Made by a program: the position numbers and the translations under genes. A DNA stretch of 64,000 nucleotides from an uncultured Pseudomonadota bacterium (GTDB lineage: Bacteria; Pseudomonadota; Gammaproteobacteria; DASZBR01): positions 205,365 through 269,364 of the forward strand of contig CAVQJZ010000007.1 of NCBI GenBank assembly GCA_963712965.1. The letters run 5' to 3'. Positions within the stretch are counted from its first letter, which is position 1; each line of letters starts with the position of its first letter. This document shows positions 3,702-61,281 of this stretch, piece by piece. The notes under the pieces are model-generated. The model was not told the origin of the DNA, made no database searches, and worked only from the letters and a program-made list of their open reading frames with translations.

Positions 3702-4619
3702 TTAGCAAGAAGCTTTTTGATGACAACCATGTTCACCGTCACCACGTTCAATTTGTAGTGTCACATGATGAATATGGAAATGATTTTTCAAATGTTCGTG
3801 AATTTCATGATAATCATGATCAGACAAATTTTTCTCAGGCATAATTAAATGCGCAGTTAACGCCACTTCGCGCGTGCTTAATCCCCAAATATGCAAATCA
3901 TGTACCGCATTTACGTTAGGCAATTGGGTTAAATAATTTTTAACGCCATGATGATCAATATGCGAAGGTACTGCATCTAATATTAAATTCAATGAATCGC
4001 GCAGTAATTGCCAGGTGCCAAATAAAATGGCGAGCACAATCAACAAACCGACTAATGGATCTACCCAAAAAGCGTGCGTGAAGAAAATAATAGCGCCGCT
4101 TAAAACAACACCTGCGGAAATTAACGCGTCCGATGCTAAATGCATATACGCACTTTTAATATTCAAATCTTCGTTTTGTCCGCGCATAAAAAGCATCGCG
4201 GTACCGCCGTTAACAAAAATACCCATGAAGGCAACCAACATCACAATTTTTTCGTTAATGGAAACAGGATGCATCAATCGATGAAAAGATTCGTACGCAA
4301 TCACAGCCGTTGCTGCAATTAAAAATAATGAATTGGTTAATGCGGCCACAATGGTTGTTTTTTTATAGCCATAACTGCGTTTTTGTGTAGCCGGTTTGGT
4401 TAATAACCAATTAGCGCCCCAGGCCATTAACAAACTCAACACATCACCAAAATTATGCCCCGCATCGGCAAGCAAACCCATGGAATGCGCAACAAATGCA
4501 TATAATGCTTCGAATACGGTAAATGTTGCATTGCCGATGACAGCCAGAATAAATACTTTGTTCCATTCAGTCGGCGCATGATGATGGTGATGATGACTGT
4601 GAGAGTGTTCGCAACCCAT
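3702..4619 (-). CDS. cation diffusion facilitator (CzcD/ZitB-like) metal efflux protein with His-rich N-terminus
   Basis: ORF 3702..4673. Start placed at MGCEHSHSHHHHHH (4619), which has a GAGGA RBS. CDF TM signature and HxxxD motifs. Confidence 0.8.
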   Translation of the reverse strand: MGCEHSHSHHHHHHAPTEWNKVFILAVIGNATFTVFEALYAFVAHSMGLLADAGHNFGDVLSLLMAWGANWLLTKPATQKRSYGYKKTTIVAALTNSLFLIAATAVIAYESFHRLMHPVSINEKIVMLVAFMGIFVNGGTAMLFMRGQNEDLNIKSAYMHLASDALISAGVVLSGAIIFFTHAFWVDPLVGLLIVLAILFGTWQLLRDSLNLILDAVPSHIDHHGVKNYLTQLPNVNAVHDLHIWGLSTREVALTAHLIMPEKNLSDHDYHEIHEHLKNHFHIHHVTLQIERGDGEHGCHQKASC

Positions 4620-10047: not shown

Positions 10048-12524
<2,477 letters not shown>

Positions 12525-22048: not shown

Positions 22049-22110
22049 TGTCATTGCGAGGAGTCTACCGCAGCGAAGCGAAGGTAGACGACGTGGCAAT
22101 CTAAATCGCA
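22049..22110. repeat. REP-like palindromic element of the 'GTCATTGCGAGG' family
   Basis: gtcattgcgagg + hairpin gtctacc...ggtagac + cgtggcaatc. Related modules occur at 32088, 34272 and 60226. Confidence 0.6.
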
Positions 22111-22215
22111 TTTTTGGAACTAAAAAATATTTCCTATTTTCTCCTGCACAAACCTTATCGTTAACTATACTAATACTGCAAAAGCATTTTTTTATTTGGT
22201 CGGCAGGAGGGTATT

Positions 22216-30269: not shown

Positions 30270-31004
30270 CTATAGTGGAAAATCTTTAGTAAATAACCAC
30301 TTTTTCTTCAAATTAACACGCGCGTAAGTTTGATAAAAATATTGGTGTCCTTTGTGACCACTGTGCGCGCTCACTTCCTTGCCTCGACGTATTAAATAAC
30401 AAACCACATCAGTTAATTGCATAAGATAATTATTATTAGACTGCACAAAATGTACAGAATCTATTATACGATCGACTAAAACATTATTTTGGCCAAAGCG
30501 CATACCGTGCTGTTTATAATGATCTAAATCATCAATTAATCTCTGCTCAAGTTCATCTTGCTCATCAGCAACAAGTAAACAGTATGAATTAAGTTGCCCT
30601 TTTAAAAGCTCCTCAACTTTCTCTACCAGCAAGGAAAAAGCAGATTGTTGGATATGCAATTTTCCATCATATTCAGATTTTTTAATAGAAACGTAACCGA
30701 TGCGAATACAATCATGCTTCAGAACAACATCCACAAGTGCATCCAATATATTTATTCGCTCACCCAATGGAAGTCTTTTAAAATATCGGCCGCGGGCATT
30801 ATAAATACCATCTCCATGGAATTCAAAATCCGTGTTATTAGACTCTACGCCAAAATAATGACGCCCTAATGACCTCAGATCATTTTCAATATGTTTAATA
30901 TTTTCAGGCGGAACAAGAAGGGCTGTCAAAACCAGATAAGGTTGATGAACATCTTTTAAATTATTCCCGGTATTTCCTGATTCATCAATATAACAAAGAT
31001 ACAA
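30270..31004 (-). CDS. DUF3800-like protein (N-terminal YIDESG motif)
   Basis: 244 aa beginning MYLCYIDESGNTG. Matches my recollection of the DUF3800 N-terminal signature. Isolated ORF, AT-rich. Confidence 0.55.
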   Translation of the reverse strand: MYLCYIDESGNTGNNLKDVHQPYLVLTALLVPPENIKHIENDLRSLGRHYFGVESNNTDFEFHGDGIYNARGRYFKRLPLGERINILDALVDVVLKHDCIRIGYVSIKKSEYDGKLHIQQSAFSLLVEKVEELLKGQLNSYCLLVADEQDELEQRLIDDLDHYKQHGMRFGQNNVLVDRIIDSVHFVQSNNNYLMQLTDVVCYLIRRGKEVSAHSGHKGHQYFYQTYARVNLKKKWLFTKDFPL

Positions 31005-31097: not shown

Positions 31098-32051
31098 ATG
31101 CAAAAAATAAATTATTTACTCTTTAGTTTACTCGCGCTTTTTTGGAGCGGTTCTTTCATCACCATCCATTTTTCAGTGGCTGCTTTTCCGCCATTGTTTG
31201 GTGCCATGATGCGTGTTTTTATCGGTCTTATTTTTTTAACGTTATTTATGTGGCAACAACAACATTCTTTTGGTGTGCCAAAAACAATTTATTGGCGCTT
31301 AATTCTTGTTGCTCTGTTAGCACAAGGCATTCCCTTTGCATTTTTATTTATGGGTGAAACGACAATTGCGCCTGCCATTGCCGGCATCATCAATAGCACC
31401 ACGCCCATTTGGGCATTGGTCATTAACGTTATTTTCTTAAAAGAATATGATCAACTCACTATTAAAAAAATTACAGGTTTATTGATAGGTATTATCGGCA
31501 TCACCTTAGTTTTTTGGCCCATGCTACAACATGAAAAAACACATGATACCTTAGCAGGCTTACTATTCGTCTTAGTCATGGCTATTTCGTATGCATTAGG
31601 CGCTATTTTAAATAAACGTTTATTATTTGGCAGAGCAAGCATTCCACTGCAAGCAAATTTATGGCATCAAACATTGGTTAATTTTGTTTTTCTTTCAGTC
31701 ATTTCATTACTGCTTAAACAATGGCCTACGTGGCATCACTTCACTCATGCTCATATCGCGTTATGGTCATTGCTCTATTTAGGTTTATTTTCGACTGCTA
31801 TCGCGTGGATTATTTTCTTTCATTTATTACACGTGTGGGATGCCGTGCGCGCCAGCAGTGTGATGTATCTTGTGCCACTACTTGCCATTGTATGGGACAT
31901 ACTTTTTCTGCACACTATTCCACAAGCGGAAGAATTATACGGTGCAGCGGCTATTTTAATGGGCGTTGTATTAATTCAATTATCGCGAGGGAGAACATGT
32001 CAACCTCACAAGAAGGCATCATTGAAATTGTTGCGGAAAAACCAGGATTAG
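31098..32051 (+). CDS. EamA/DMT-family transporter (10 TM)
   Basis: 317 aa with two EamA-like hydrophobic halves. Confidence 0.75.
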   Translation: MQKINYLLFSLLALFWSGSFITIHFSVAAFPPLFGAMMRVFIGLIFLTLFMWQQQHSFGVPKTIYWRLILVALLAQGIPFAFLFMGETTIAPAIAGIINSTTPIWALVINVIFLKEYDQLTIKKITGLLIGIIGITLVFWPMLQHEKTHDTLAGLLFVLVMAISYALGAILNKRLLFGRASIPLQANLWHQTLVNFVFLSVISLLLKQWPTWHHFTHAHIALWSLLYLGLFSTAIAWIIFFHLLHVWDAVRASSVMYLVPLLAIVWDILFLHTIPQAEELYGAAAILMGVVLIQLSRGRTCQPHKKASLKLLRKNQD

Positions 32052-32116
32052 AAGCGTATGCGTTTACGTTTGGTGACTGACACCCACGTCATTGCGAGCG
32101 TAGCGAAGCAATCCAG

Positions 32117-32323
32117 AAATCCTAGATTGCCACGGCGACTTTGTCGCCTCGCAATGACGGACATCAACAATGCCAAAATATTTCACAATAAAATTGTTTT
32201 ACTTTTCTCACCTTTTTCTTCTTTCGCCAGGCGCGGGACTAAATATCCCGGCAATTGCGCTTGCATAAGTTTGACAATTTTTTTCGCGGTTTTTTCACTC
32301 ACGTCAATGTGCAAATAATAAGG
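32117..32323 (-). pseudogene. degenerate duplicate of the epmB 3' end plus its downstream REP element (~90% identical to 34272..34508, with a ~30-bp deletion)
   Basis: Direct alignment of the two segments in the sequence. The ORF-track pair 32058..32318 and 34282..34503 share the PRRLCRLAMTDINNAKIFHNKIVLLFSPFSSFA... peptide because they are antisense readings of this duplication. Confidence 0.7.
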
Positions 32324-32476
32324 AAGAGCGCTCGTTTTATTGGCAATATAATCCACCGCGCAGCTCTATCCTTGGGCTTAATGCTTTAATATGGTCGAAG
32401 CACAAAGAGTAAAAAATCAAAGTAAATGCTATAATTCACCTGGAACAACCTTTTGAAAGGTGTAGGAGATTGATTT

Positions 32477-33886
32477 ATGTTAGAAGCCTTTGCTCGATTT
32501 ACTTGTCCCCCTTTATCTACTGATTCTTTCGGAAAGGAAAAAGCGATTAGAGCACTCCGGGAACAGATCGATAGACAACTTAAGTCTATTGTTGAGGAAG
32601 TTGTTGGGCTACCAGTAGAGCTAGGGAAATTTAGCAATGAGCTTCCATCAGAAATAGCAATCCAACTCATTCAAACCAGCCGCCATTTTCTTCAGCAAGT
32701 GATTAAACTTCCTGCCATGGAAGAAAAAAATGCTTTAGAACAGCAAATGCGTTTTATTGCATTAATTCTAAGCAACCGAATCAATCAATTTCCCAAAGTG
32801 CTTCATGGCGTAGTTAATACTCTTTTGCGGGAAATTAGCCAAACAGTTGGAAAGGTTCCTGTATTAAACGAAAGTGTTCCACTGCCTGAGCAAGATTTTC
32901 TACCTGTAAAATATGATGATTCAGTTAAACACTGGCAAACCACTGTTTATCGTGACCCAGGTAGAGATAAAAAAGACAAAGTAGCGTTTTTTAGTCGGCA
33001 AGATGATTTAGGTCAAATTGCGTCGGTAAGAAGGCAGTTGCTCGTTGAAAGCATGAACTCACGAAATCAAGCTGAAGCTTTCAGTTTTGCCGAGTCAGAT
33101 TATTATGCGATGGGCGATTTACAAGTCAATCATTTGCAGCCTTCTGAAGAAATCATCGAGCGACAATTAGAATTAATCATGGCTATGAATATAGATTCTT
33201 TGTTCTGTGAAGCCATGATGGAACATCAAGAAGCCGACAAGTATTTTAAAAAAGTACATTCACATGGTAGAGACGAAATAGCAGGAACGAAATACTTTTT
33301 CCAGGTGTATCATAATTGCATTGATAATCTGTGGTTGATTAGTACCGCGGCAAATACGGGCTTGGGCAAACTTAATCAAAATCCTATTGATTGGCTAGAA
33401 TCACACTTAAGATACGGAGCAAGATTTTTCAATGAATCAGGTGGAATCCAGGCGATAAATCGTGATTCAATATTATATACTGTTGAAAAACCTGGCCAAA
33501 AAGTAGTTTTGGCCAAAGTAGCGAAAGAATGGTTTTTAAATACTTACAAAGAAGAGCTAGCGGCAGCAGGGTATTTGCGAGAAATAACGAGTACCGCCAA
33601 AGGGAAATTAGGCGGAGTTATACAAGAACCGAAAACATCTATTTCTAAACGCAAAAAAATTAAATTTATGATAAGAGCGGCAATGGCTGAAAGATTATTA
33701 CAAATTTCTTCGCCAAGTGGTTCTTCAAGCCCATCGTCATCTTTTGCAGAGATTAATCAGGAAAATATGAATCTTGTAGGACAAGTCATCGACGAAGAAT
33801 TTGCTAATCCAACTTCCTTGTTGACTCTAGCAAAAGGTAGTGCTGGCAAGCTGTCAAAAGCTTATGTCAATCTTAAGAAGAGGTAA
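32477..33886 (+). CDS. hypothetical protein (469 aa), island cargo; effector-like, no recognisable domain
   Basis: GGAG RBS 8 nt upstream. Acidic block (IDEEF) ~30 aa from the polar C-terminus. Confidence 0.55.
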   Translation: MLEAFARFTCPPLSTDSFGKEKAIRALREQIDRQLKSIVEEVVGLPVELGKFSNELPSEIAIQLIQTSRHFLQQVIKLPAMEEKNALEQQMRFIALILSNRINQFPKVLHGVVNTLLREISQTVGKVPVLNESVPLPEQDFLPVKYDDSVKHWQTTVYRDPGRDKKDKVAFFSRQDDLGQIASVRRQLLVESMNSRNQAEAFSFAESDYYAMGDLQVNHLQPSEEIIERQLELIMAMNIDSLFCEAMMEHQEADKYFKKVHSHGRDEIAGTKYFFQVYHNCIDNLWLISTAANTGLGKLNQNPIDWLESHLRYGARFFNESGGIQAINRDSILYTVEKPGQKVVLAKVAKEWFLNTYKEELAAAGYLREITSTAKGKLGGVIQEPKTSISKRKKIKFMIRAAMAERLLQISSPSGSSSPSSSFAEINQENMNLVGQVIDEEFANPTSLLTLAKGSAGKLSKAYVNLKKR

Positions 33887-33891
33887 ATTTT

Positions 33892-34203
33892 ATGAAAAGA
33901 TCTAGGGAATTAAGTCAAAGTGGAATTTTTAAAAAAACTGGTGTATTTGCAGAAAAAAAACAACTAAAAGAGGAGAAAATGTTTCTTATAGCTATGCGTG
34001 AAAAATGTTTCCCACGAATTCGTCAAGAAACAATGGATGAACTAGGAGAAAAATTTACTGAGCAAGCTGCTGAGGATAATTATAAATTGTTTGTACAAGC
34101 TTGTTATAGCAAGGGGATAATGGAAAAAATGCTGGGTGAATATTTGCAGAAAAAAATTGCGCGTGAGCGGGAAAAATACGCAAACCCTAGCCCTCGAAAG
34201 TAA
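33892..34203 (+). CDS. hypothetical small protein (103 aa), co-transcribed with the 469-aa ORF
   Basis: 5-nt intergenic gap, GAGG RBS. Charged and helical. Confidence 0.5.
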   Translation: MKRSRELSQSGIFKKTGVFAEKKQLKEEKMFLIAMREKCFPRIRQETMDELGEKFTEQAAEDNYKLFVQACYSKGIMEKMLGEYLQKKIAREREKYANPSPRK

Positions 34204-34337
34204 AATTAAGATAGTAAAAAATATCGCAAATATTCGGGACACCTTGTTATGCCGAGCATGCGGTAATCCATAAATCCTAGATTGCCACGGCGACTTTGTC
34301 GCCTCGCAATGACGGACATCAACAATGCCAAAATATT

Positions 34338-35303
34338 TCACAATAAAATCGTTTTACTTTTCTCGCCCTTTTCTTCTTTTGCCAAACGCGGAACCAAATA
34401 CCCTGGCAATTGCGCTTGCATAAGTTTGACAATTTTTTTCGCGGTTTTTTCACTCACTTCAAAATGCGCAGCACCCTTCACTTTATCTAACATATGCAAA
34501 TAATAAGGCAGGATACCCATAGCGAATAATTGTTCGCTTAATTTAGTTAAGCTCTCTGCTGTGTCATTAATATTTTTTAGTAACACGGATTGATTTAATA
34601 ATACTACGCCGGTTTTTTTTAATTTCGCCATCACGCTCGCAATTTTTTTATCTAATTCATTCGGATGATTACAATGCACGACAACAACTTTTTGCCACGG
34701 TAAATTTTTCAACCACGTTAAAAAAACAGTATCAATACGGTCGGGAGCAACGATAGGCATGCGCGTGTGAATACGTAATGTTTTAATATGTTTAATCGCG
34801 CGCAATTTATCTGTGAGATTTTTAAGCGACGCATTAGTTGCCATTAAAGGATCGCCACCACTTAAAATAATTTCCGTAATGCTTTTATCATGGGCAATAT
34901 AATCAACCACTTTATTCCACCCTTGGCGCCCTGGATTATTGTCGTTATAAGGAAAAGCGCGGCGAAAACAATAGCGACAATGAATCGCGCAGCTTCCAGT
35001 GACCGTCAAAAGCACGCGCCCTTGATATTTATGTAGCAATCCCGAAATGGGATTAGCTTGCTTTTCACCTAAGGGATCCAAAGAATAGTCTTTGGGCGAG
35101 TAAAATTCCGCGTGAAGTGGCAAAACTTGTTGCAACAAAGGGTCATTGGCATTACCTTTCTCAACTTTTGATAGCCAGTGGCGCGGAAACCGCAGCGGAA
35201 AAAGTGTCGCCACACGATAAGCTTCTTCCAAGAGAGTTGCATCCAATGCCAAGGCGTTGAATAATTCTTTAGGGTCAGTGATAAAAGCGGGTTTTGATTT
35301 CAT
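34338..35303 (-). CDS. epmB: EF-P beta-lysylation protein EpmB (lysine 2,3-aminomutase-like radical SAM)
   Basis: CAIHCRYCFRR radical-SAM cluster motif. Divergent from efp. Confidence 0.88.
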   Translation of the reverse strand: MKSKPAFITDPKELFNALALDATLLEEAYRVATLFPLRFPRHWLSKVEKGNANDPLLQQVLPLHAEFYSPKDYSLDPLGEKQANPISGLLHKYQGRVLLTVTGSCAIHCRYCFRRAFPYNDNNPGRQGWNKVVDYIAHDKSITEIILSGGDPLMATNASLKNLTDKLRAIKHIKTLRIHTRMPIVAPDRIDTVFLTWLKNLPWQKVVVVHCNHPNELDKKIASVMAKLKKTGVVLLNQSVLLKNINDTAESLTKLSEQLFAMGILPYYLHMLDKVKGAAHFEVSEKTAKKIVKLMQAQLPGYLVPRLAKEEKGEKSKTILL

Positions 35304-36822: not shown

Positions 36823-36913
36823 TCCGCAGAATCCCCTCTCTCGTGATAGAGATTGATCAAAATTGAAATCCCCTCTCCCGCTGGCGGGAGAGGGTTAGGG
36901 TGAGGGTGGAAAA
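36823..36913. repeat. dispersed hairpin + G-rich repeat (aaattgaaat-cccctctcccgctggcgggagagggttagggtgagggtgg)
   Basis: Near-identical direct copy at 39280..39330; related inverted copies at 5806..5847 and 40304..40375. Confidence 0.7.
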
Positions 36914-37001: not shown

Positions 37002-37304
37002 ATGAAAAAGAAAAGATTTAACGAGATACAGATTCTTAATGTTTTAAAAGAACATGAAGCTGGCATACCTGCAGTTGAGTTAGCGCGCAAATATGGTATT
37101 GGCGAAAGCACCATTTATGCATGGAATGCTAAATATGCGGGCATGGAAGTAAACGAGCTTAAACGATTAAAACAATTAGAGGATGAAAATGCTCGTTTAA
37201 AAAAGATGTACGCGACGTTAAGCATGGACCATGAGCTACTGAAGGAGGTGCTTGAAAAAAAGTACAACGTGGATCTGAGCGACGCGAAACAGCGAAAGAT
37301 TTAA
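37002..37304 (+). CDS. IS3-family transposase OrfA (HTH)
   Basis: 100 aa: HTH (IPAVELARKYGIGESTIYAWN) followed by a leucine zipper. Confidence 0.85.
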   Translation: MKKKRFNEIQILNVLKEHEAGIPAVELARKYGIGESTIYAWNAKYAGMEVNELKRLKQLEDENARLKKMYATLSMDHELLKEVLEKKYNVDLSDAKQRKI

Positions 37305-38113
37305 TCGAAAGTCGCGGCGCCTCTATCAGTCAGGCATGTCGTGTTGCCAATATAGATCGCAAAACATATCGCTATCACCCGAAGAGAAAACAGGACAACA
37401 AAATGATTGAAGATTTATTAAAAACTCTTTCTGCTCAGCATCCCACATATGGGTTTCAGAAATTATTTGATTTAATTCGAATTAAAAGTTATTCGTTTAA
37501 TCACAAACGCGTATACCGAATTTACTGTGATTTAAGTCTTAACTTGAAGATAAAGCCCAAAAAACGCCTGGCACCAAGAACAAAAATTAAATTAGCACAA
37601 CCAGAAAATCTTAATCAGTGCTGGTCATTGGATTTCATGAGTGATGCGCTCACTAGCGGGCGACGTATTCGCACAGCAAATGTGATTGATGATTGTAACC
37701 GTGAGGCATTAGGTATTTTAGTTTCGCTTTCATTGACATCAAAAAGAATTACTCGATGGCTTGATCAGCTTGCATCATTACGCGGATACCCGAATCGAAT
37801 TCGCGTTGATAACGGGCCGGAAAATATTTCCCACCATTTTCAAAGCTGGGCAAAAGCACACGGCATTTTTATCCAATATATTCAACCAGGCAAGCCAGCA
37901 CAAAACGCTTACATTGAAAGATTTAATCGTAGTTATCGCGAAGCAGTTTTGGATATGTATTTATTTCGAAACATACAAGAGGTGCAAAATATTACTAATA
38001 ATTGGCTTAAACACTACAACGAGGAAAGACCACATGAATCACTAAATAATCTGCCACCCAGGATTTTTATTAACAACTTACATCAAAACCACTCTAGTTG
38101 TGCAGTGGGGTAA
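37256..38113 (+). CDS. IS3-family transposase OrfB (DDE/rve integrase), expressed by -1 frameshift at A_AAA_AAG (37256..37262)
   Basis: The OrfB frame is open upstream of its ATG (…KDLIESRGASISQACRVANIDRKTYRYHPKRKQDNKMIEDLL). The slippery heptamer a-aaa-aag lies in the orfA frame. The rve motifs and the DDE triad region are present. Confidence 0.8.
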   Translation, partial: KKVQRGSERRETAKDLIESRGASISQACRVANIDRKTYRYHPKRKQDNKMIEDLLKTLSAQHPTYGFQKLFDLIRIKSYSFNHKRVYRIYCDLSLNLKIKPKKRLAPRTKIKLAQPENLNQCWSLDFMSDALTSGRRIRTANVIDDCNREALGILVSLSLTSKRITRWLDQLASLRGYPNRIRVDNGPENISHHFQSWAKAHGIFIQYIQPGKPAQNAYIERFNRSYREAVLDMYLFRNIQEVQNITNNWLKHYNEERPHESLNNLPPRIFINNLHQNHSSCAVG

Positions 38114-38228: not shown

Positions 38229-39269
38229 TTATCGGCTATTTTTCGGTCCTGGACCTTTCTCGTGATCAGACTCGCTAACAATCTCTGATGAGCTTTGTGA
38301 TACTTGGTTTTGGGCAGATCCACTAGAAGCAGAAAGCGTAGAATGAGCATAGACGCCAAAATTACTTATGGCTGATGCTGGTGATTGGTCTACGGCAGTA
38401 TGACCACTTAATCTTCTTACTTGTTCTCTAAGCTGCGCTATTTCTTCTTGAGCTTTTCTTTCATTTGCTTGCGCTTTTCTTTCATTTGCTTGCGCTTCTT
38501 CCTTTAATCTTCGTTCTTCTTTCAATTTTCCTTCCGGGCTTTCTTCCTTAAAAAACTGACACAACTTTTTTTCTAACTCAATAAAAGGTTTCTTAGCTTC
38601 CTGTTCCGCACAACTGGTAACAAAAGCTTCAAACTTCTCAGCAACATTATGCCAATCATCTGAATTCGCTCGTTCATCTGTCGCTGCCAATCGTTTTAAC
38701 AAATTGTAAACTTTTTTCTTAAGCGGCCTTTCTTCACAAATTAACCTTGATAAACGCGCTATGCGTTTATAACTTCTCGTCATACTCCAAGCGTTATAGT
38801 GTGCCTTTTTTGTTAAAAAGCCTCTTAAATCATTATCATCTGCATCATCACTTGTGCTTTCCGTTGTACTTGATGCCGTACCGGTACTTAAACGTCTATA
38901 GCCCTGCAGCAACTGGCGCATCGTCTGACCGGCATCATGCTCAGGACGTAATATACTAAACGTCCCATCTGCTCGATGTTGAACAAACAACGTTTCGCCT
39001 TTTTCACTATCCTTCATAGCCAAATCACCCTTTTCATTGATTACTCTCGCTGCACTATCTAATATCACCACAAGCTGTCCAGTTAATTCTTCTAATGCCT
39101 TCAATTCTAACGATCTCGGAAGTTTTTCTCCATTATCTATGTGCTTTAAACACGCTTCTAATTCAGATCGACTGCTGCCTTCCTTTGTTTGTCCAGCCTG
39201 CCTTTCTAAATGGGATCTTATCCTTTTTCGCAAATCGCTACCAAATTCAGGATACCGAGTTAAAAGCAA
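38229..39269 (-). CDS. hypothetical coiled-coil protein (346 aa) with an internal 7-aa tandem repeat (AQANERK x2.3) and a Ser-rich C-terminus; effector-like
   Basis: No recognised domain. The 21-bp tandem DNA repeat at ~38452..38500 is seen directly. The stop codon lies 10 bp from the IS right end. Confidence 0.5.
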   Translation of the reverse strand: MLLTRYPEFGSDLRKRIRSHLERQAGQTKEGSSRSELEACLKHIDNGEKLPRSLELKALEELTGQLVVILDSAARVINEKGDLAMKDSEKGETLFVQHRADGTFSILRPEHDAGQTMRQLLQGYRRLSTGTASSTTESTSDDADDNDLRGFLTKKAHYNAWSMTRSYKRIARLSRLICEERPLKKKVYNLLKRLAATDERANSDDWHNVAEKFEAFVTSCAEQEAKKPFIELEKKLCQFFKEESPEGKLKEERRLKEEAQANERKAQANERKAQEEIAQLREQVRRLSGHTAVDQSPASAISNFGVYAHSTLSASSGSAQNQVSQSSSEIVSESDHEKGPGPKNSR

Positions 39270-60217: not shown

Positions 60218-60244
60218 TATATTTCCCCGTCATTGCGAGGCAAC

Positions 60245-61204: not shown

Positions 61205-61281
61205 GTCCCGGTGGCGCAGCTGGATAGCGCGGCCCCCTCCTAAGGGGCAGGTCGGCGGTTCGAATCCGCCCCGGGACACCA
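61205..61281 (+). tRNA. tRNA-Arg (anticodon CCT)
   Basis: Manually folded cloverleaf: acceptor gtcccgg/ccgggac, D-arm gcgc/gcgc, anticodon stem gcccc/ggggc with loop cuCCUaa, T-arm ggcgg-ttcgaat-ccgcc, 3' CCA. Confidence 0.85.

What the first reader, a model, noticed from the sequence alone, without database searches (positions are those of the whole stretch)
32117..34508. ~2-kb island with two unknown genes inserted at the 3' end of epmB, bounded by a duplication of the epmB 3' end
The last ~57 codons of epmB plus ~65 bp of downstream REP sequence (34272..34508) are repeated in direct orientation at 32117..32323. The distal copy is ~90% identical and carries a ~30-bp deletion, so it is an inactive displaced gene end. 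Between the copies lies a two-gene operon with its own RBSs: a 469-aa ORF and a 103-aa ORF separated by 5 nt, with no recognisable domains. The 469-aa protein has an acidic block about 30 residues before a polar C-terminus, as Dot/Icm-type substrates often do. This geometry is the classic footprint of site-specific integration into the 3' end of a gene, but no integrase remains. Either the cargo is the remnant of a decayed integrative element, or these are novel effector/chaperone-type or toxin/immunity-type genes acquired by it.
Basis: seen in the sequence. Interest (0 to 1): 0.72.

Follow-up and report, generated by a model that had tools for sequence, protein, structure and literature searches.

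The report
Two-gene islet inserted behind epmB
A 2-kb piece of imported DNA sits at the end of the housekeeping gene epmB, flanked by a duplicated copy of that gene's end, and carries a wandering two-gene cassette: a previously undescribed, degenerate "split" HNH nuclease-like protein plus a small partner that always accompanies it.

Summary
The last 57 codons of epmB plus 66 bp downstream (34272-34508) recur at 32117-32323 with a 30-bp in-frame deletion, flanking a 469-aa and a 103-aa gene 5 nt apart. Three things are new.

1. The repeat has a 78-bp perfectly identical block (34272-34349 = 32117-32194). In the coding part next to it, 11 of 12 differences are synonymous. The two epmB ends therefore diverged as working genes in different lineages, so one was imported.

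2. No empty site was found. Two relatives carry other cargo between epmB and EamA: a PIN toxin-antitoxin pair plus a thioredoxin-like gene, or GNAT plus MFS. The gap is an insertion hot spot. The island has no integrase.

3. The 469-aa protein does have a recognisable domain. It belongs to an unannotated family of 223 clusters whose core is an HNH nuclease motif split by an insert of about 50 aa. Its own clade has lost all four zinc ligands but keeps the catalytic His and Asn residues. A small downstream gene follows the large one in all 14 loci examined, each in a different genomic context. Some relatives are fused to OTU or Ulp1-type proteases.

Most likely this is a nuclease-like toxin or effector with its antidote or chaperone, inserted by recombination. 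The function is inferred.

The parts
31098..32051 (+). EamA-family transporter gene; left flank of the island, convergent with epmB
   Evidence: Pfam EamA 1.8e-33. 84-94% nt identity to relative L014.
32085..32160 (.). Complete REP-like palindromic element (termini CGTCATTGCGAG / CTCGCAATGACG with two inner hairpins), probably the resident element between EamA and the original epmB end
   Evidence: Fold -38.3 kcal/mol, z = -3.9. The terminus motif occurs 5 times in the window against 0.3 expected.
32117..32194 (.). Distal copy of the 78-bp perfectly identical direct repeat (right half of the REP element + 22 bp spacer + last 12 nt of epmB); candidate crossover or att-like segment
   Evidence: 66/66 non-coding plus 12 coding nt identical to 34272-34349. 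The first mismatch on either side is at 32116 and 32195.
32183..32323 (-). Displaced epmB 3' fragment: 46 codons plus stop, with a 30-nt in-frame deletion. It encodes a peptide identical to EpmB over VSEKTAKK...TILL.
   Evidence: tblastn 9e-26. 129/141 nt identical; 11 of 12 differences are synonymous.
32330..32408 (-). Possible older, heavily degraded epmB remnant (about codons 116-141, 'QG..VDYIA'), joined directly to codon ~265. Weak evidence.
   Evidence: Local alignment score 18.5 against shuffles 10.7 +/- 1.5; reached by 1 of 1000 shuffles.
32409..32476 (+). Cassette's own promoter and leader. Homology to the L002 cassette begins at 32409. Extended -10 TGcTATAAT at 32427-32435; RBS GGAG before the ATG at 32477.
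   Evidence: blastn L002 9933-11708 = window 32409-34181, 83%. Sequences read. This promoter was read by eye; the simple promoter scan did not list it.
32477..33886 (+). 469-aa protein: N-terminal helical bundle, central split and degenerate HNH-like domain (H219, N280, N284, N293, K298 retained; zinc ligands lost), long basic C-terminal helices with a Ser-rich linker
   Evidence: Family search, motif table, Pfam HNH on relatives, AF2 pLDDT 93.3 / pTM 0.91.
33892..34203 (+). 103-aa basic (pI 9.6) small partner protein, co-transcribed 5 nt after the large gene; conserved C-terminal motif G(I/T)..K(M/I)LdeYLqeKI
   Evidence: Alignment A5. HMM tests recover partners in 10 further loci. No Pfam, NCBIfam or PADLOC hit.
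34240..34316 (.). Second REP-like element. Its right part is identical to the distal one; its left arm is degenerate (about 60% identity). It lies between the convergent ORF103 and epmB.
   Evidence: Alignments.
34272..34349 (.). Proximal copy of the 78-bp perfect direct repeat
34338..35303 (-). Intact epmB (EF-P beta-lysylation radical-SAM enzyme). Its last 57 codons (34338-34508) are the proximal repeat copy.
   Evidence: TIGR03821 3.2e-137, above cutoff. 90% aa identity to P0009.

Best explanation
The region 32195-34271 is a small genomic islet. It entered the convergent gap between epmB and EamA by recombination across the epmB 3' end and the adjoining REP-like palindrome.

The incoming DNA came from a related lineage and brought its own copy of the epmB end, leaving two copies. 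They share a 78-bp perfectly identical joint. Beyond it they differ only at synonymous sites. epmB stays intact, and the extra copy has since lost 30 bp and probably more upstream. The island has no recombinase of its own. The 78-bp direct repeats could also allow RecA-mediated excision.

The cargo is a self-contained cassette, with its own extended -10 promoter and two genes, that turns up at unrelated intergenic sites in other uncultured bacteria. Its large protein belongs to an undescribed family whose core is an HNH (His-Me finger) nuclease motif interrupted by an insert of about 50 residues. In this clade the four zinc ligands are lost, but the catalytic His and the Asn/Lys positions are kept. 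The small basic protein encoded 5 nt downstream is its obligate partner.

The most likely working model is a nuclease-type (or nucleic-acid-binding) toxin or secreted effector that is neutralised or chaperoned inside the producer by the small partner.

Shown: the repeat anatomy, the xenologous origin of one copy, the hot spot, family membership, conservation of the gene pair, and its mobility.

Inferred: the recombination route, which copy is foreign, any nuclease activity, and the antidote or chaperone role.
For: Repeat anatomy:
- Alignment and codon analysis show a 78-nt block at 100% identity. Next to it are 12 differences in 141 coding nt, of which 11 are synonymous and one (E to D) sits at the edge of the deletion.
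- If one copy had drifted as a pseudogene, I estimate about 40% of differences would be synonymous. The chance of 11 of 11 is then about 5e-5 (my calculation).

Hot spot:
- L014 (EpmB 90% identical) has a PIN_3/RHH pair and a thioredoxin-like gene between epmB and EamA.
- L015 (71% identical) has GNAT and MFS genes there.

No integrase: only an IS3 element at 37002-38113, outside the repeats.

Cassette mobility:
- The L002 cassette is 83% nt identical over 32409-34181 only, and sits in another context.
- 14 loci were examined, all with different neighbours.
- No flanking gene-end duplication occurs in the other loci.
- Island GC content matches its flanks.

Family:
- 223 clusters at E<=1e-3.
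- Family-wide motif C-x2-[HC]...DH...N..NLWLIC..CN..K, with N284 and K298 invariant and H219, N280 and N293 at least 90% conserved.
- 15 of 66 distant members hit Pfam HNH.
- With the insert spliced out, Cys-bearing members match HNH over its full length (profile positions 1-47 or 4-47 of 47), E 6.5e-9 to 5.9e-5, above the gathering score.
- JGI named one member McrA.

Partner:
- A small ORF lies 0-72 nt downstream in every locus with the large gene.
- Eleven partners are demonstrably homologous: the window's own and those in 10 further loci. One follows an 853-aa Ulp1-fused relative (E 3e-18).
- An orphan partner gene remains in L007 after loss of the large gene.

Effector flavour:
- Fusions to OTU, Peptidase_C48 and RickCE domains.
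- Neighbours include Mito_carr, Ank and RAP genes.
Against: - ORF469 itself gives no HNH hit even after splicing. It has lost all four zinc ligands, and residue 218 is Asn instead of the family's Asp, so it may be catalytically dead.
- The partner is basic (pI 9.6) and the HNH-like core acidic (pI 5.1). This is the reverse of colicin DNase/Im pairs.
- No secretion or trafficking domain was detected.
- No empty epmB-EamA site was found in any relative, so the insertion event is inferred from the footprint alone.
- Which epmB copy is foreign is unresolved. At the 12 variable sites the proximal copy matches L014 at 7 and the distal copy at 2, while L015 splits 5 to 5.
- The 78-bp identity is unexpected under simple homologous (Campbell) integration at 9% divergence (0.91^78 is about 6e-4). 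It requires either an att-type core or gene conversion.
Confidence: 0.55

Rival explanations
1. Remnant of a classical integrase-driven integrative element (phage 21 / e14-at-icd type). An element carrying a replacement epmB 3' end integrated by site-specific recombination within the 78-bp identical core. Its integrase and most other genes were later deleted, leaving only two cargo genes.
For: A perfect 78-bp direct repeat is flanked by similar but synonymously diverged gene-end sequence. To my knowledge, this is the icd/icd' geometry at the phage 21/e14 site; that both integrate in icd is stated in PMC12803456. The target gene is left intact.
Against: There is no integrase, excisionase or any other element gene between the repeats. 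The 2.08-kb interval is fully accounted for by promoter, two genes and REP. The same cassette in 13 other loci never sits next to an integrase or at epmB, and shows no such repeats. Neighbouring relatives carry unrelated small cargo at the same gap. This fits a general recombination hot spot better than one element's att site. No relatives were found in viral or plasmid collections.
Confidence: 0.2
2. The cassette is itself the mobile agent. The HNH-like protein acts as a free-standing homing-type endonuclease, with the small protein as cofactor. It cuts target DNA and is copied in by double-strand-break repair. The duplicated epmB end is a by-product of co-conversion or imprecise repair.
For: The family has an HNH-type motif. 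The cassette boundaries coincide with promoter plus two genes and nothing else. It is scattered in unrelated intergenic sites of different genomes. In three genomes it is bracketed by the resident palindromic repeats.
Against: Homing enzymes recur at one cognate site, whereas here every site differs. There are no phage, intron or intein associations and no viral hits. Fusions to OTU/Ulp1 protease domains and a strictly conserved partner are not features of homing endonuclease genes. The ORF469 clade has a degenerate motif.
Confidence: 0.1
3. The pair is an intracellular toxin-antitoxin or anti-phage defence module (nuclease effector plus small regulator), carried like the PIN/RHH pair that occupies the same gap in the relative L014. 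It is not a secreted toxin or effector.
For: The same hot spot holds a PIN_3/RHH toxin-antitoxin pair in L014. In L007 the orphan partner lies next to a HigB/HigA-like pair. The compact two-gene architecture has its own promoter and moves patchily.
Against: There are no PADLOC hits. The small gene lies downstream and has no HTH, RHH or other antitoxin-type domain. At 469 aa, with large helical N- and C-terminal domains and eukaryote-type protease fusions in relatives, the large protein is atypical for type II toxins.
Confidence: 0.15

Closest known systems
Phage 21 / e14 integration into the 3' end of icd in E. coli (icd plus displaced icd' fragment)
   Same: The insert lies at the 3' end of a housekeeping gene, and the gene stays intact. 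A second, slightly different copy of the gene end sits at the far side of the insert, with differences that are mostly silent. The icd details are from my own knowledge. That both elements use the icd site is stated in PMC12803456.
   Different: Here there is no integrase or any other element gene, only 2.08 kb between the repeats. The repeat extends into a REP-like palindrome. The cargo cassette occurs elsewhere without this footprint.
HNH / His-Me finger nucleases (Pfam PF01844; McrA-type C-x2-C...DH...N...C-x2-C-N/H..K)
   Same: The wider family carries the full motif in the canonical order. Once the insert is removed, it matches the Pfam model end to end.
   Different: An insert of about 50 residues splits the hairpin between the DH strand and the N..NLW strand. 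ORF469's clade has replaced all four zinc ligands (C to S, H to E, C to S, C to A). ORF469 has NH instead of DH, and ORF469 itself has no significant profile or fold match.
Colicin E7/E9 DNase-Im7/Im9 and polymorphic nuclease toxin-immunity pairs
   Same: An HNH-type domain protein is followed immediately by a small helical partner gene that co-varies with it. An orphan partner gene occurs in another genome.
   Different: The partner is basic, not acidic. There is no receptor-binding, translocation, PAAR, Rhs or LXG-type delivery domain. The nuclease-like domain is central rather than C-terminal.
Effector/metaeffector gene pairs and DUB effectors (OTU, CE-clan/Ulp1, RickCE) of intracellular bacteria such as Legionella and Rickettsia
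   Same: Adjacent co-transcribed large and small proteins. Family members are fused to OTU or Ulp1/RickCE-like domains. Genomic neighbours include Mito_carr, Ank and RAP genes typical of host-associated bacteria.
   Different: No secretion system or translocation signal was demonstrated. The acidic block is at -32 to -28, not at the usual E-block position. One relative sits in an anaerobe-type gene context.

Membership tests
HNH / His-Me finger superfamily (PF01844) | Significant match to an HNH profile | tested here: not met
   For ORF469 itself: no hit for the full-length protein or for the insert-spliced sequence. For the family it is met: 15 of 66 distant members hit HNH, and spliced constructs give E 6.5e-9 to 5.9e-5 over profile positions 1-47 or 4-47 of 47. 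Homology of ORF469 to those members is secure (E down to 1e-10 and better).
HNH / His-Me finger superfamily (PF01844) | Catalytic His at the end of strand 1 (DH/HH) plus the conserved Asn residues and the metal-ligand N/H in the helix | tested here: met
   H219, N280 and N293 are at least 90% conserved. N284 and K298 are invariant in 106 sequences. ORF469 has N218-H219.
HNH / His-Me finger superfamily (PF01844) | Structural zinc site (C-x2-C/H ... C-x2-C) of McrA-type HNH | tested here: not met
   Present in distant members (PC.AHGD ... LIC..CN). Replaced by FSFAESD ... LISTAAN in ORF469 and its clade.
HNH / His-Me finger superfamily (PF01844) | Beta-beta-alpha-metal fold in three dimensions | tested here: inconclusive
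HNH / His-Me finger superfamily (PF01844) | Metal-dependent nuclease activity | not testable with these tools
   Needs biochemistry.
Integrase-mediated integrative element (phage 21 / e14 type) | Direct repeats made of the target gene's 3' end flanking the insert, with the target gene left intact | tested here: met
Integrase-mediated integrative element (phage 21 / e14 type) | Tyrosine or serine recombinase gene within the element | tested here: not met
   Only two ORFs lie between the repeats, and neither has a recombinase domain. The IS3 transposase at 37002-38113 is outside them.
Integrase-mediated integrative element (phage 21 / e14 type) | Empty attB in related genomes | tested here: inconclusive
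   The two closest relatives found (L014, L015) carry other inserts at the site. No empty site was recovered.
Nuclease toxin-immunity pair (colicin DNase/Im, polymorphic toxins) | Small cognate gene immediately downstream, co-conserved with the toxin domain | tested here: met
   A small ORF lies 0-72 nt downstream in every locus that has the large gene. Eleven partners are homologous by HMM: the window's own and those in 10 further loci.
Nuclease toxin-immunity pair (colicin DNase/Im, polymorphic toxins) | N-terminal delivery or trafficking domain; acidic DNA-mimicking immunity protein | tested here: not met
   No Pfam or NCBIfam domains in the N-terminus. The partner has pI 9.6.
Dot/Icm (type IVB) effector | C-terminal translocation signal (E-block about -17 to -10, small polar tail) and a Dot/Icm system in the genome | tested here: inconclusive
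   The acidic IDEEF block is at -32 to -28. The 10 largest ORFs of the window that were scanned are housekeeping genes, not dot/icm genes. The rest of the genome is not available.
Free-standing homing endonuclease gene | Recurrence at one cognate site; phage, intron or intein association | tested here: not met
   All 14 loci have different neighbours. There are no viral or phage relatives.

The most novel reading that the evidence does not exclude
The split-HNH protein and its obligate small partner form a new kind of system in uncultured, host-associated bacteria. One reading is a host-directed nuclease-type effector with a dedicated intrabacterial antidote; the OTU and Ulp1 fusions point to delivery into eukaryotic cells. 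The other reading is an autonomous two-gene mobile cassette that installs itself at REP-rich intergenic gaps without an integrase or transposase, using the HNH-like protein to initiate recombination.
Probability: 0.15. Interest if true: 0.7.

Novelty: new variant of a known kind. Interest (0 to 1): 0.45.

Why it matters
The footprint itself is a textbook type of event and mainly useful as a clean example. The synonymous-only divergence between the two epmB ends dates them to separate functional lineages, and the epmB/EamA gap emerges as a hot spot with three different cargoes in three relatives.

The more valuable result concerns the cargo, which standard annotation leaves as two hypothetical proteins. 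It defines an undescribed family of 223 clusters (at 50% identity) with a split HNH core. A small gene follows the large one in every locus examined. The family also shows occasional fusions to eukaryote-type deubiquitinase or deSUMOylase domains. It is confined so far to metagenomic bacteria and absent from the Pfam, NCBIfam, PADLOC, PDB, phage and plasmid collections searched.

If the pair proves to be a nuclease effector with an antidote, it adds a new module to the repertoire of host-associated bacteria. If the protein is inactive, it is an example of an HNH scaffold repurposed after loss of its zinc site.

Tried and rejected
- Direct Pfam, NCBIfam and PADLOC scans of both proteins: nothing.
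- PDB sequence searches with 5- and 106-sequence profiles: only chance hits.
- AF2 with the 5-sequence alignment: unusable, pLDDT 52.7. It was redone with 106 sequences.
- The GTDB genome scan with EpmB returned only distant relatives at 51% identity or less, so it could not supply an empty site.
- Viral, plasmid and phage searches for the family: no match.
- Transposon ends. The 22-nt perfect inverted repeat around the L002 cassette turned out to be that genome's own repeat motif (TAGTTCCGATAA), absent from the window. It lies outside the region shared with the window.
- Assembly artefact. Rejected because the copies differ at 12 sites and by a 30-bp deletion, and because an independent unitig spans the inner junctions.
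- Post-duplication decay as the source of the differences. Rejected by the synonymous-only pattern.
- Identity profile of epmB and its flanks against L014, to locate a recombination breakpoint. The 3' half of epmB is about 81% identical against a background of about 86%, within the range seen elsewhere, so this was not decisive.
- L016's 466-aa unannotated neighbour of miaA/mutL as a family member: no.


Full report
**1. The observation**

- epmB (34338-35303, minus strand) is an unambiguous EF-P beta-lysylation radical-SAM gene (TIGR03821, 3.2e-137, above cutoff).
- It is followed divergently by efp and epmA.
- On the other side lies an EamA transporter gene (31098-32051, plus strand; Pfam 1.8e-33).
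- Between them are a 469-aa ORF (32477-33886) and a 103-aa ORF (33892-34203), separated by 5 nt.
- The last 57 codons of epmB plus 66 bp downstream (34272-34508) are repeated in direct orientation at 32117-32323.
- The distal copy lacks 30 nt in frame.
- The downstream sequence is part of a REP-like palindrome with termini CGTCATTGCGAG / CTCGCAATGACG. It is complete at 32085-32160 and folds well beyond shuffles (z = -3.9). Its terminus motif occurs five times in the window against 0.3 expected.
- An independently assembled public unitig (L001) is identical to 32273-34301 and breaks inside both repeat copies. The inner junctions and the deletion are therefore not an artefact of this assembly.

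**2. Fine structure of the repeat**

Read in the sense of epmB, the two copies fall into zones.
- First comes 16 nt (CCTTATTATTTGCA..) with one difference, then the 30-nt indel.
- Next come about 109 coding nt that carry 11 of the 12 coding differences.
- Then comes a block of 78 nt with no difference at all (34272-34349 = 32117-32194). It covers the last 12 nt of epmB, the spacer and the right half of the REP element.
- Finally, the left arm of the REP element is only about 60% identical.

Of the 12 coding differences, 11 are synonymous (ten third positions and one TTG/CTG). The twelfth (GAA/GAC) abuts the deletion. The encoded peptide VSEKTAKK...KSKTILL is identical in both copies.

If the distal copy had simply drifted as a pseudogene, I estimate that only about 40% of differences would be silent. 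The chance of 11 of 11 is then about 5e-5. The two ends therefore diverged while both were parts of working epmB genes in different lineages, and one of them was imported with the insert.

Which one was imported is not settled. At the variable sites the functional (proximal) copy agrees with the closest relative L014 seven times and the distal copy twice, while L015 splits five to five. This mildly favours the distal fragment as the foreign one. That reading also fits the REP arms: the intact palindrome lies next to EamA and the degenerate one next to the cargo.

A further weak similarity upstream of the distal copy (32330-32408 against epmB codons about 116-141) scores 18.5 against shuffles of 10.7 +/- 1.5, and 1 of 1000 shuffles reached it. 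The fragment may once have been longer and lost about 370 bp internally.

**3. The locus in relatives**

A search of 5.8 billion proteins with EpmB found two close relatives (90% and 71% identity), and their contigs were retrieved.
- L014 is collinear with the window on both sides: 87% nt identity over epmA-efp-epmB, ending exactly at the epmB stop, and 88% over EamA-DUF3800. Between epmB and EamA it carries a PIN_3 toxin, an RHH antitoxin and a thioredoxin/AhpC-like gene. The thioredoxin-like gene is itself inserted into the last ~15 codons of EamA and displaces the old gene end.
- L015 carries a GNAT acetyltransferase and an MFS transporter in the same gap.

The predicted empty site was therefore not found. 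Instead, three relatives hold three unrelated cargoes, so the convergent epmB/EamA gap is an insertion hot spot in this lineage. The island's GC content is indistinguishable from its flanks. No recombinase lies between the repeats. The only one nearby is an IS3-family element at 37002-38113.

**4. The cargo is a wandering two-gene cassette**

The word-indexed search found only four relatives of the 469-aa protein (81%, 41%, 38% and 34% identity) and one relative of the 103-aa protein. Their contigs, four metagenome loci and three loci of more distant members were then examined.
- In every case the large gene is followed on the same strand, 0-72 nt downstream, by an ORF of 80-156 aa.
- Neighbours differ in every locus: HTH/Mito_carr genes, YkuD|xseA, apaG, miaA|mutL, a TPP enzyme|TenA, rubredoxin|rubrerythrin.
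- HMM tests show that partners in 10 loci outside the window are homologous to the 103-aa protein. One follows an 853-aa relative fused to a Ulp1-like protease (E 3e-18). Three other partners are conserved only in position.
- In L007 the partner gene survives alone, preceded by only the last 36 bp of the large gene.
- DNA homology between the window and the L002 cassette runs from 32409 to 34181. This covers a conserved extended -10 promoter (TGcTATAAT, 32427-32435) and the two genes, and nothing else.
- No other locus shows a flanking gene-end duplication.
- In three genomes (window, L002, L018) the cassette is bracketed by that genome's own palindromic repeats.

**5. What the proteins are**

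Direct scans against Pfam, NCBIfam, PADLOC and PDB sequences find nothing. An exhaustive profile search of 1.84 billion representative proteins changes the picture.
- It finds 223 clusters at E<=1e-3 and 62 at E<=1e-30. The conserved core is residues about 200-440, in proteins of about 70 to 924 aa; the shortest are probably fragments.
- Across 106 aligned members, N284 and K298 are invariant and H219, N238, N280, W286 and N293 are at least 90% conserved.
- The distant members spell out P-C-x-A-[HC]-G-D-x-V...L-x-x-D-H ... (about 50 residues) ... F-N-D-I-D-N-[IL]-W-L-I-C-x-x-C-N-x-x-K. This is the McrA-type HNH motif in the correct order, but split by an insert.
- Fifteen of 66 distant members hit Pfam HNH, but only with the second half of the model.
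- When the insert is removed in silico, four of five Cys-bearing members match the whole model (profile positions 1-47 or 4-47 of 47) at E 6.5e-9 to 5.9e-5, above the gathering score.
- JGI had independently named one member McrA.

ORF469 and its clade are degenerate. The four zinc ligands are replaced (FSFAESD..., LISTAAN), ORF469 has N218-H219 rather than D-H, and its spliced sequence no longer hits HNH.

With the 106-sequence alignment AlphaFold2 gives a confident model (pLDDT 93.3, pTM 0.91).
- It has a helical bundle at 20-124, a mixed alpha/beta core at 146-356 and long C-terminal helices.
- A strand ends in H219, followed later by strand 285-289 and helix 290-293.

Several distant members carry C-terminal OTU, Peptidase_C48 or RickCE-like domains. 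Neighbouring genes in two loci include mitochondrial-carrier, ankyrin and RAP proteins. This points to host-associated bacteria and possibly secreted effectors. One relative, however, lies in an anaerobe-type gene context. The family has no relatives in the phage, viral-contig or plasmid collections.

The partner protein is basic (pI 9.6). The HNH-like core is acidic (pI 5.1) and the C-terminal helices are basic (pI 10.0).

**6. How it most likely works**

Shown:
- An imported 2.08-kb segment is bounded by 78-bp perfect direct repeats within a longer, synonymously diverged duplication.
- It sits in a hot spot.
- It carries a promoter-plus-two-gene cassette that moves between unrelated sites.
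- The large protein belongs to a split-HNH family and always has a small gene immediately downstream.

Inferred:
- The insert entered by recombination across the epmB end and REP segment, by one of two routes. One is Campbell-type integration of a circular DNA from a related donor, with conversion of the joint. The other is an integrase acting in trans on an att-like core.
- The repeats could also allow excision.
- The proteins form a toxin or effector with an antidote or chaperone.

The antidote reading rests on three points: the strict synteny, the co-variation of the two genes and the orphan partner gene. The basic charge of the partner and the degenerate active site argue against a classical colicin-type DNase/immunity pair and leave room for a non-catalytic role.

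**7. Comparison with what is known, and verdict**

- The footprint works like phage 21/e14 at icd. The shared icd site is stated in PMC12803456; the duplicated icd end is from my own knowledge. It fails the membership test for an integrative element because there is no recombinase.
- The protein family is a member of the HNH superfamily at the family level. ORF469 itself fails the profile and zinc-site tests and is best called a degenerate split-HNH homologue.
- The gene pair resembles nuclease toxin-immunity pairs and effector-metaeffector pairs, but meets only the synteny criterion of either.

I rate the finding as a new variant of known kinds. It is moderately interesting, chiefly for the undescribed protein family and its obligate partner.

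Noticed in passing
L014:4376-5335 (equivalent to window 32002|32009): In the closest relative, an ~887-bp thioredoxin/AhpC-like gene is inserted into the last ~15 codons of EamA. The old EamA end (L014 4381-4447 = window 32009-32075, 88%) is displaced without duplication. This is a second, independent gene-end insertion at the same hot spot.
   Followed up: partly
L014:3666-4305 and L015:1597-3253: The epmB/EamA gap holds a PIN_3 toxin plus RHH antitoxin in one relative and GNAT plus MFS genes in another. With the window's cassette, that makes three different cargoes in three related genomes.
   Followed up: yes
window 37002-38113: IS3-family insertion sequence (orfA HTH_Tnp_1 at 37002-37304; orfB rve/rve_3 at 37403-38113) just beyond epmA. 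L014's homology to the window on this side ends at 36843, before this position.
   Followed up: partly
window 22049-22122 and 60228-60239: Further copies or fragments of the REP-like palindrome with CGTCATTGCGAG termini. No Rfam family matches them. The only Rfam hit in the window is a tRNA at 61205-61278.
   Followed up: partly
L002:9854-9875 / 11722-11756; L018:1491-1880 / 3991-4268: In two other genomes the same cassette is bracketed by those genomes' own short palindromic repeat families: TAGTTCCGATAA hairpins in L002 and clustered 42-60-nt repeats in L018. This echoes the REP elements on both sides of the window's island. It may indicate that REP-rich gaps capture the cassette.
   Followed up: partly
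L007:1583-1929: Orphan copy of the small partner gene (82% identical), preceded by only the last 36 bp of the large gene. It lies beside a HigB/HigA-like pair and two large unannotated proteins with acidic or Ser-rich C-termini.
   Followed up: partly
L023:9395-9638: A 122-bp tandem duplication (99% identical) spans the end of the large gene and the start of the small gene in one distant family member. It is absent from the otherwise matching contig L024.
   Followed up: no
window 30270-31004: A DUF3800 protein gene (Pfam 3.1e-22) lies next to EamA. Its DNA is conserved in L014. Its function is unknown.
   Followed up: no
window 34338-35303 vs L014:2698-3663: Identity between the two epmB genes falls from 99% in the first 90 nt to 74-81% in the 3' half. 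This may reflect recombination tracts reaching in from the variable gap, but similar dips occur in epmA.
   Followed up: partly
window 38229-39269: A 346-aa ORF with no Pfam or NCBIfam match lies beside the IS3 element. L014's homology to the window ends before this region.
   Followed up: no
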